From: Escherichia coli
GTDB taxonomy: Bacteria; Pseudomonadota; Gammaproteobacteria; Enterobacterales; Enterobacteriaceae
Length of the DNA stretch: 64,000 nt
NCBI RefSeq assembly: GCF_024298765.1
Contig: NZ_CP101210.1
Strand: one strand, 5' to 3'
Shown: positions 43,576-44,017 of the stretch, in pieces
How the letters are laid out: the number at the start of each line of letters is the position of its first letter
Numbering within the stretch: the stretch's first letter is position 1
The notes under the pieces: model-generated
The model's input: only the letters and a program-made list of their open reading frames with translations
Told to the model about the DNA's origin: nothing
Database searches by the model: none
Made by a program: the position numbers and the translations under genes

Positions 43576-44017
43576 TACATTATTCTGTCTTATTAATTGA
43601 AAATTATTTCTCGCTTTATTATCCATGCGGCAATAATATTTTGTGTTTAGATAACCTGCTAAATAATTAAGATCGTGAGAACATCTATTTTTTATCACGC
43701 AAAACAAGTCTGTACTAATTATGTTCGCTTGATGAGCAAACACCGTTCTATCTGTTGCTTTTGCAATCTTAATCGTTAAAACTACCAACAAATTTATATA
43801 GTTACGTTGTGAATGGTTGTTAATTTTTTGTTTATTGAAATTTCGTAAAAATAACCATCCAGACATCGAATAGGGGTTATTCTTATAAATTTTACCTGTT
43901 TTTCTATCAATGATGCCGTTTTCTTAAGAATGGAGGAAGTTATTAAAGAAGATAAAGCATAAAACTATTTCTCCCAGTTACGAATTTTTTAACATTGTTT
44001 TGTCACTTGCGTTATTA

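What the first reader, a model, noticed from the sequence alone, without database searches (positions are those of the whole stretch)
43576..44017. Long AT-rich upstream region of sslE
About 440 bp of AT-rich, curved-looking DNA precedes sslE. This looks like a nucleoid-protein-silenced, possibly temperature-controlled promoter region for the sslE–T2SS operon.
Basis: inference. Interest (0 to 1): 0.4.

Follow-up and report, generated by a model that had tools for sequence, protein, structure and literature searches.

The report
Known H-NS-silenced sslE operon promoter

Summary
Positions 43576-44017 run from the glcA terminator to the base before the sslE ATG. They have 28.7% G+C, the lowest of any 442-bp stretch in the 64-kb window, and lie in its longest intergenic gap (484 bp).

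"Curved" is only partly true. One strong predicted bend sits at about 43898. Average curvature equals that of shuffled sequence.

Tan et al. 2016 (PMC5012682), citing Yang et al. 2007, report a mapped promoter upstream of sslE/yghJ, strong H-NS repression at 22 °C, H-NS binding to this AT-rich curved DNA, and Fis activation through a site at -41 to -68. The K-12 orthologous spacer is listed as H-NS-bound in all ChIP studies compared (PMC3661553).

Mapping the published coordinates through UTI89 gives:
- Transcription start: 43790.
- -35: TTGCTT, 43755-43760.
- -10: AAAACT, 43778-43783.
- Fis sites: 43645-43659 and 43723-43748.
- Leader: 228 nt.

These blocks are the best-conserved non-coding parts against E. 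albertii. The leader shows no RNA family match, no significant fold and no covariation. Verdict: real, ordinary, already known.

The parts
43543..43576 (+). Intrinsic terminator of glcA: a 10-bp stem (GCCGGATGAT...ATCATCCGGC) plus a T-rich tail. It marks the upstream edge of the AT-rich spacer.
   Evidence: Terminator scan. Conserved in all E. coli alleles aligned. Homology in a deletion strain stops just after it.
43645..43659 (+). Putative Fis site F1 (GTTTAGATAACCTGC), centred at -138. The published mutation of this site had no effect on promoter activity.
   Evidence: G-N13-C 15-mer. Mapped from the Tan 2016 coordinates through UTI89. 87% identical to E. albertii.
43723..43748 (+). Fis region F2: three overlapping G-N13-C 15-mers at -67 to -42. 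In UTI89 it is needed for Fis activation of the promoter.
   Evidence: Function taken from Tan 2016. One base (-48) differs from UTI89.
43755..43760 (+). Inferred -35 hexamer TTGCTT (TTGATT in E. albertii).
   Evidence: It sits at -35 to -30 relative to the mapped +1 and 17 bp from the -10. Conserved.
43778..43783 (+). Inferred -10 hexamer AAAACT (AAAAAT in E. albertii). It is overlapped by an H-NS-motif-like 10-mer, TCGTTAAAAC, at 43773-43782.
43790..43790 (+). Transcription start (+1) of the sslE operon, transferred from the published UTI89/H10407 mapping.
   Evidence: It is the only position among UTI89 locus coordinates 440-600 (about -86 to +75 of the mapped start) that satisfies both published constraints: F1 centred at -138, and three Fis 15-mers within -41 to -68. 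It lies inside the published active fragment, -255 to +33. This is an inference; the start was not measured here.
43790..44017 (+). AT-rich 5' leader of 228 nt. It contains the strongest predicted DNA bend (about 43880-43915, centred at 43898, which is +109). There is no Shine-Dalgarno sequence before the ATG.
43576..44073 (.). AT-rich tract likely to carry the H-NS/StpA filament. The K-12 'promoter island' corresponds to about 43700-44073 by my coordinate conversion. A second predicted bend lies at about 44062, inside sslE.
   Evidence: The extent of binding is inferred.
44018..48574 (+). sslE (yghJ), a lipoprotein M60 mucinase and the first gene of the operon.
   Evidence: RefSeq annotation. 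Pfam matches to DUF4092, M60-like_N and Peptidase_M60.

Best explanation
This is the regulatory region of the sslE(yghJ)-pppA-gspS2(yghG)-gspC...M operon, which encodes type II secretion system beta and its substrate SslE.

A weak sigma-70 promoter (TTGCTT, 17-bp spacer, AAAACT) starts transcription at about 43790, producing a 228-nt AT-rich leader. The whole 28-30% G+C tract extends upstream of the promoter, across it, through the leader and into the start of sslE. It is a binding platform for H-NS (and StpA). At low temperature these proteins coat or bridge the tract and prevent RNA polymerase from initiating. At 37 °C repression is relieved to a strain-dependent degree. Fis, bound just upstream of the -35 (F2, -67 to -42), then activates the promoter and counteracts H-NS.

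Shown here: the composition, the anatomy, sequence identity to the studied alleles, and the conservation of the promoter and Fis blocks.

Taken from the literature: H-NS, temperature and Fis dependence, 5' RACE mapping, and H-NS binding.

Inferred: the exact +1 in this window, the extent of the H-NS filament, and the role of the downstream bend.
For: - Composition and position.
- Gene context identical to annotated E. coli genomes: glcA, sslE, pppA, gspS2, gspC to yghD/gspM.
- Published experiments on orthologous alleles (PMC5012682).
- H-NS ChIP summary for the K-12 spacer (PMC3661553).
- yghJ named among H-NS motif-rich targets (PMC2094087).
- The published promoter-fragment primers land at 43535-43822.
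- A single start position fits the published Fis-site coordinates.
- The spacer is 96.1% identical to UTI89 and identical from -47 to +44.
- Against E. albertii, F1 (87%), the core promoter (86%) and F2 (77%) are more conserved than the rest of the spacer (61-73%).
- An H-NS-motif-like 10-mer overlaps the -10.
- The strongest predicted bend of the window lies at +109, and another at +273.
- No terminator-like site between sslE and pppA.
Against: - Nothing was measured in this strain. Tan 2016 show that the strength of H-NS repression at 37 °C differs between strains (about 1.7-fold in UTI89, about 7.2-fold in EC958).
- H-NS motif matches and promoter-like sites are no more frequent than the base composition alone predicts. 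The sequence evidence for H-NS binding therefore reduces to AT-richness plus one bend.
- The +109 bend is weaker in some E. coli alleles and absent in E. albertii, so it may not be essential.
- The primary paper (Yang et al. 2007) could not be read. Its results are cited second-hand.
- The tool's strict promoter scan finds no + strand promoter. The assigned hexamers match only 6 of 12 consensus positions.
Confidence: 0.9

Rival explanations
1. Temperature control is post-transcriptional. The long 228-nt leader would fold into an RNA thermometer or other cis-regulatory RNA that hides the start codon at low temperature.
For: The leader is long, and its 3' part (+131 to +228) is 93% invariant among eight E. 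coli alleles. Predicted unpaired probability around the ATG is low, 0.16-0.19. TypA, a ribosome-binding GTPase, is reported to raise SslE levels.
Against: No Rfam match even at E<=1. The fold energy is not better than shuffles (z = +0.44). The consensus structure has 43 pairs, none with a compensatory change, and 10 pairs are broken in at least one sequence. Predicted accessibility of the start region hardly changes between 22 and 42 °C. There is no Shine-Dalgarno sequence to sequester. The published temperature effect is at the mRNA/promoter level and depends on hns.
Confidence: 0.05
2. The tract is a 'promoter island': AT-rich, possibly foreign DNA full of competing promoter-like sites on both strands. 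H-NS would keep it silent mainly to suppress spurious transcription, rather than as a purpose-built thermoregulated promoter.
For: The K-12 orthologous spacer is one of the promoter islands listed by Panyukov and Ozoline. There are 24 lax promoter-like -10 positions in 484 bp, against 7.8 on average for the window; only 4 of 263 windows reach that count. The only strict consensus match is on the minus strand, at 43662-43633.
Against: The density of promoter-like sites does not exceed that of composition-matched shuffles (mean 32). One defined promoter was mapped by two laboratories, and its Fis site is functional. The promoter and Fis blocks are preferentially conserved against E. albertii. 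This reading complements the main explanation more than it competes with it.
Confidence: 0.04
3. The spacer hides an unannotated gene. Candidates are the 101-aa minus-strand ORF at 43561-43866, which a few genomes annotate as a hypothetical protein, and a 10-codon upstream ORF (ATG at 43931, MEEVIKEDKA).
For: The ORF exists in this window and is annotated in strains Rb-50 and APEC O2-211. A GGAGG at 43933-43937 is conserved in E. albertii.
Against: One- and two-base indels in the T-run near 43688 shift the minus-strand ORF's frame in other E. coli alleles. Its only Pfam match is below the cut-off (17 bits against 26.5). The small ORF's ATG is ATA in E. albertii, and both substitutions within E. 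coli change the amino acid. K-12 carries no annotation there despite its curated small-protein set.
Confidence: 0.01

Closest known systems
yghJ/sslE promoter of ETEC H10407 and UPEC UTI89/EC958 (Yang et al. 2007, J Bacteriol 189:142; Tan et al. 2016, PMC5012682)
   Same: It is the same locus (the glcA-sslE spacer) with the same operon downstream. The spacer is 96.1% identical to UTI89, and identical from -47 to +44. The Fis F1 and F2 15-mers and the -35/-10 hexamers are in the same register.
   Different: There are 19 differences from UTI89 across the spacer, including one in F2 (-48) and two in F1 (-142, -134). Published strains differ in how strongly H-NS represses at 37 °C, so this allele's expression level is unknown.
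Other H-NS thermoregulated virulence promoters that use DNA downstream of the start site (ETEC eltAB, Shigella virF, proU)
   Same: It shares AT-rich DNA spanning the promoter, with predicted bends downstream of +1. For eltAB, H-NS sites downstream of the promoter at curved DNA are described in PMC3153253. Tan 2016 cite Fis/H-NS antagonism at virF as the parallel.
   Different: Here the bent segment lies in a 228-nt untranslated leader rather than inside the first coding sequence, and no dedicated anti-silencer (AraC- or Ler-type) is known. Whether repression works by bridging upstream and downstream segments was not tested here.
E. coli K-12 T2SS-alpha locus (gspA/gspC-O), silenced by H-NS
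   Same: It is a second type II secretion gene cluster of E. coli whose control region is H-NS-bound and is also listed as a promoter island (gspA/gspC entry; Francetic et al. 2000 cited).
   Different: It is a different locus and a divergent promoter pair, with different substrates. There is no sequence relationship to this spacer.
Promoter islands of E. coli K-12 (Panyukov and Ozoline 2013, PMC3661553)
   Same: The K-12 orthologue (3117080_374, yghJ/glcA) is on their list, with H-NS binding seen in all the ChIP data sets compared.
   Different: In my counts the excess of promoter-like sites is explained by base composition. Unlike most islands on that list, this one contains an experimentally mapped, productive promoter.

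Membership tests
Published sslE/yghJ operon promoter region | Lies between glcA and sslE, upstream of pppA-gspS2-gspC...M on the same strand | tested here: met
   The annotation of an identical genome region shows this layout. ORFs agree. No terminator-like site between sslE and pppA.
Published sslE/yghJ operon promoter region | Sequence corresponds to the cloned, active UTI89 fragment (primers 5570/5571) | tested here: met
   The primers map to 43535-43822, which is -255 to +33. The spacer is 96.1% identical to UTI89, and identical from -47 to +44.
Published sslE/yghJ operon promoter region | Fis sites F1 (centre -138) and F2 (-41 to -68) in register with one start site | tested here: met
   Exactly one position in UTI89 satisfies both constraints. 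It maps to window 43790.
Published sslE/yghJ operon promoter region | Transcription actually starts there in this strain | not testable with these tools
   This needs 5' RACE or dRNA-seq. Only the UTI89 and H10407 mappings are reported.
H-NS/StpA-silenced thermoregulated promoter | DNA markedly more AT-rich than the genome | tested here: met
   G+C is 0.287 against 0.521. The lowest 442-bp stretch of the window (0.283, from 43590) lies inside this region. AT-richness is conserved at 0.29-0.32 in seven other alleles, including E. albertii.
H-NS/StpA-silenced thermoregulated promoter | Intrinsic curvature near the promoter | tested here: inconclusive
   There is one strong predicted bend at 43898 (above 99.3% of shuffles) and one at 44062, but mean curvature equals that of shuffles. 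The bend is absent in E. albertii, and the model parameters were recalled from memory. Tan 2016 report curvature with BEND-IT.
H-NS/StpA-silenced thermoregulated promoter | Matches to the H-NS high-affinity motif tCGATAAATT | tested here: inconclusive
   There are 7 sites scoring at least 8/10 in 484 bp, five times the window density. Shuffles of the same composition give 5.05 +/- 2.19, and 122 of 500 reach the observed count. One site overlaps the -10.
H-NS/StpA-silenced thermoregulated promoter | Physical binding of H-NS | not testable with these tools
   Literature only. The K-12 spacer is bound in all ChIP studies compared. Purified H-NS binds the H10407 region, according to Tan 2016 citing Yang 2007.
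H-NS/StpA-silenced thermoregulated promoter | Derepression in an hns mutant and at 37 °C compared with 22 °C | not testable with these tools
   Literature only. Not measured for this strain.
RNA thermometer or other cis-regulatory leader RNA | Stable, conserved structure that occludes the ribosome-binding site and melts with temperature | tested here: not met
   No Rfam match. Fold z-score +0.44. None of 43 consensus pairs is compensatory, and start-region accessibility is 0.16-0.19 from 22 to 42 °C.
Promoter island (Panyukov and Ozoline) | Unusually dense promoter-like sites on both strands | tested here: inconclusive
   There are 24 lax sites against a window mean of 7.8, ranking in the top 4 of 263 windows, but composition shuffles give 32. 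The strict scan finds 1 site against 2.5 expected. The K-12 orthologue is on the published list. Their PlatProm scoring was not available to me.

The most novel reading that the evidence does not exclude
The 3' part of the 228-nt leader (about 43920-44017) is 93% invariant among E. coli alleles. It carries a GGAGG that is conserved in E. albertii, and the sslE ATG that follows has no Shine-Dalgarno sequence. This part could hold an undescribed post-transcriptional control element. Possibilities are a ribosome stand-by or upstream-ORF site, or the target through which the ribosome-binding GTPase TypA raises SslE, acting on top of the known H-NS/Fis control of transcription.
Probability: 0.1. 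Interest if true: 0.35.

Novelty: already known. Interest (0 to 1): 0.08.

Why it matters
SslE is a mucin-degrading colonisation factor and a vaccine candidate. The T2SS-beta behind it secretes heat-labile toxin in ETEC, so the switch that turns the operon on at body temperature is biologically important. That switch has been described since 2007 and refined in 2016.

This re-analysis adds bookkeeping only: base-level coordinates of the published elements in this window, evidence that the promoter and Fis blocks are the conserved parts out to E. albertii, and the caveat that the motif and promoter-like signals are what AT-richness alone would give.

Tried and rejected
1. Rfam search of 43300-44300 at E<=1 found nothing.
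2. The leader fold was not better than shuffles. RNAalifold on eight alleles gave no compensatory pairs and no temperature-dependent opening of the start region. The RNA thermometer idea was rejected.
3. The tool's strict promoter scan found no + strand promoter. I first guessed a start near 43809 from a TATAGT at 43797-43802. I dropped this when the published Fis coordinates, applied to UTI89's own sequence, fitted only 43790. The TATAGT element (GATAGT and GATAAT in divergent alleles) remains a possible secondary -10.
4. H-NS motif enrichment was not above composition. Promoter-site density was likewise not above composition.
5. The idea that 43576 marks an island boundary came from strains whose homology stops there. 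The one strain examined turned out to have an IS4 insertion and deletion, so that case does not support the idea; the other truncated matches were not examined.
6. The minus-strand 101-aa ORF and the 10-codon upstream ORF were rejected as genes.
7. Yang et al. 2007 could not be retrieved, and a search for the phrase 'yghJ promoter' found no paper.
8. A PhoP/PhoQ review returned by the search does not mention sslE in its main text.
9. The genome-contig scan with a back-translated N-terminal pattern gave only three loci, so the footprint beyond Escherichia is unknown.

Full report
**What is in the sequence**

The window is an E. coli chromosome segment. It is 100% identical to several sequenced strains over the query tested. 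Its gene order is ...glcDEFGBA, sslE, pppA, gspS2, gspC-gspL, yghD(gspM). The hyb, gss and pitB genes lie further upstream.

glcA ends at 43533. A 10-bp-stem terminator hairpin sits at 43543-43569 with a T-rich tail. The RefSeq start codon of sslE is at 44018 (sequence).

**The observation**

- G+C of 43576-44017 is 0.287. The window mean is 0.521, with sd 0.048 for 442-bp windows, so the interval is about 4.9 sd low. The lowest 442-bp stretch in the 64 kb (0.283) starts at 43590, inside it (profile).
- The 484-bp gap is the longest between annotated genes in the window.
- For curvature I used a wedge-model script with parameters recalled from memory. As a check, phased A6 tracts gave 24.7 deg/turn and unphased tracts 5.7.
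- The model places the strongest bend of the entire window at 43898, at 25.5 deg/turn. This exceeds 99.3% of dinucleotide shuffles of the spacer.
- The mean curvature of the spacer is no higher than in shuffles.

AT-richness is therefore solid. "Curved" holds for one local bend, plus a second at about 44062 inside sslE.

**What it is**

The literature already describes this region.

- Tan et al. 2016 (PMC5012682) mapped the sslE start site in UTI89 by 5' RACE. [quoted passage not shown] 2007.
- They show that hns deletion raises sslE mRNA at 22 °C in UTI89 and EC958. Repression at 37 °C is strain-dependent.
- They show that Fis activates the promoter through a site region F2 at -41 to -68. A second putative site, F1, centred at -138, is dispensable.
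- They restate that the H10407 region is AT-rich and curved and binds purified H-NS.
- Lang et al. 2007 list yghJ among H-NS-sensitive genes with multiple motif matches.
- Panyukov and Ozoline 2013 list the K-12 yghJ/glcA spacer as a "promoter island" bound by H-NS in all the ChIP data sets they compared.
- I could not obtain Yang et al. 2007 itself, so its results are cited through these papers.

**Mapping the published elements onto the window**

The primers used to clone the active UTI89 fragment match the window at 43535-43822. I fetched UTI89 itself. I then asked which start position (tested over locus coordinates 440-600, about -86 to +75 of the eventual answer) would put a Fis-type G-N13-C 15-mer centred at -138 and three overlapping 15-mers within -41 to -68. 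Exactly one position qualifies. It aligns to window 43790, an A. This gives:

| Element | Window coordinates | Position relative to +1 |
|---|---|---|
| F1 | 43645-43659 | centred at -138 |
| F2 | 43723-43748 | -67 to -42 |
| -35 (TTGCTT) | 43755-43760 | -35 to -30 |
| -10 (AAAACT) | 43778-43783 | -12 to -7 |
| Leader | 43790-44017 | +1 to +228 |
| Cloned fragment | 43535-43822 | -255 to +33 |

The spacer between the -35 and -10 hexamers is 17 bp. The hexamers are a poor consensus match, 6 of 12. This explains why the strict scan saw no + strand promoter, and it fits a promoter that depends on an activator.

The window's spacer is 96.1% identical to UTI89's and identical from -47 to +44. One difference lies in F2 and two in F1.

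**Independent support from conservation**

Eight E. coli alleles chosen across the identity range align without rearrangement. E. albertii and Escherichia sp. E1V33 have the same layout of glcA, an AT-rich spacer of about 500 bp, then sslE.

Against E. albertii, identities are as follows:

| Block | Identity to E. albertii |
|---|---|
| F1 | 87% |
| Core promoter | 86% |
| F2 | 77% |
| Other parts of the spacer | 61-73% |

AT-richness is retained in all alleles, at 0.29-0.32. The +109 bend is predicted in the E. coli alleles at 14.5-25.5 deg/turn, but not in E. albertii.

**How it most likely works**

H-NS (with StpA) binds the AT-rich tract spanning the promoter, the leader and the first part of sslE, and blocks initiation at low temperature. 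A 10-mer resembling the H-NS motif, TCGTTAAAAC, overlaps the -10. At 37 °C Fis at F2 activates the promoter and opposes H-NS.

The dependence on hns, temperature and fis comes from the literature. The extent of the filament and any role for the downstream bends are inference.

One caution applies. H-NS-motif matches number 7, against 5.05 +/- 2.19 in shuffles. Lax promoter-like sites number 24, against 32 in shuffles. Both are several-fold denser than in the rest of the window, but not denser than the base composition alone predicts. So sequence analysis supports little more than "AT-rich, with a bend".

**Rivals**

- RNA thermometer or riboswitch in the leader. This is not supported. There is no Rfam match, the fold z-score is +0.44, none of 43 consensus pairs is compensatory, and predicted start-site accessibility is flat from 22 to 42 °C.
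- A hidden gene. This is not supported. The minus-strand 101-aa ORF is broken by indels in other alleles and has no domain above cut-off. The 10-codon upstream ORF loses its ATG in E. albertii.
- The promoter-island reading. This is compatible with the main explanation and complements it.

**Verdict**

The feature is real and correctly interpreted, and it is already known. The only open thread is whether the well-conserved 3' part of the leader, which carries a conserved GGAGG and precedes an ATG with no Shine-Dalgarno sequence, has a post-transcriptional role. I give that low probability.

Noticed in passing
window 43931-43963; GGAGG at 43933-43937: There is a 10-codon upstream ORF (MEEVIKEDKA) in the sslE leader. 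Its GGAGG is conserved in E. albertii, but the ATG is ATA there. A 3-nt insertion in E. albertii keeps the reading frame.
   Followed up: partly
window 44000-44020: No Shine-Dalgarno-like sequence precedes the annotated sslE ATG at 44018. An in-frame TTG at 44000 also lacks one.
   Followed up: no
window 43561-43866, minus strand: A 101-aa ORF lies antisense to the promoter. A few RefSeq genomes annotate it as a hypothetical protein (WP_001334343.1). Indels in the T-run near 43688 break it in other strains, so it is probably spurious.
   Followed up: yes
window 43797-43802: A TATAGT -10-like element sits at +8 to +13. It is retained as GATAGT or GATAAT in divergent alleles. It could be a secondary promoter or a sigma-70 pause element.
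   Followed up: partly
L003 (E. coli strain S8) 8127-9750: An IS4 element is inserted just after the glcA terminator, and everything from sslE to part of gspK is deleted. In this strain the junction coincides with the start of the AT-rich tract.
   Followed up: partly
E. coli genome collection: About 1,058 of 5,426 complete E. coli genomes give no match at all to the query, which includes 134 nt of glcA. About 280 more match only partially. The locus is therefore variable across the species.
   Followed up: no
L002 (K-12 MG1655) 5591-8050: In K-12 yghF (GspC-type) lies directly next to yghE (GspL-type). The gspD-K genes present in this window (about 51030-58800) are missing from K-12.
   Followed up: no
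window 32553-33002 and 19052-19794: These are the two other strongly AT-rich spots in the window. One is the divergent spacer between the fatty acyl-AMP ligase gene and yghO (G+C 0.30). The other is the gss-pitB spacer (G+C 0.31). Both could also be H-NS targets.
   Followed up: no
window about 23530-32573: An accessory cluster here contains extra lptF/lptG copies, a serine palmitoyltransferase (spt), an acyl carrier protein, an epimerase/dehydratase and a fatty acyl-AMP ligase. It looks like a lipid-modification locus.
   Followed up: no
window 44062; 44170-44270: A second predicted DNA bend (20 deg/turn) lies in the signal-peptide coding part of sslE. It is followed by a Pro/Glu/Thr-rich repeat (PEPTPD-like) near the SslE N-terminus.
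   Followed up: no
window about 60900-64000: Downstream of yghD there are RelE/ParE-ParD and CbtA-CbeA toxin-antitoxin genes and DUF4942, DUF957 and DUF5983 genes. This resembles a CP4-type island remnant. In K-12 pheV is the next annotated gene after yghD; no tRNA search was run on the window.
   Followed up: no
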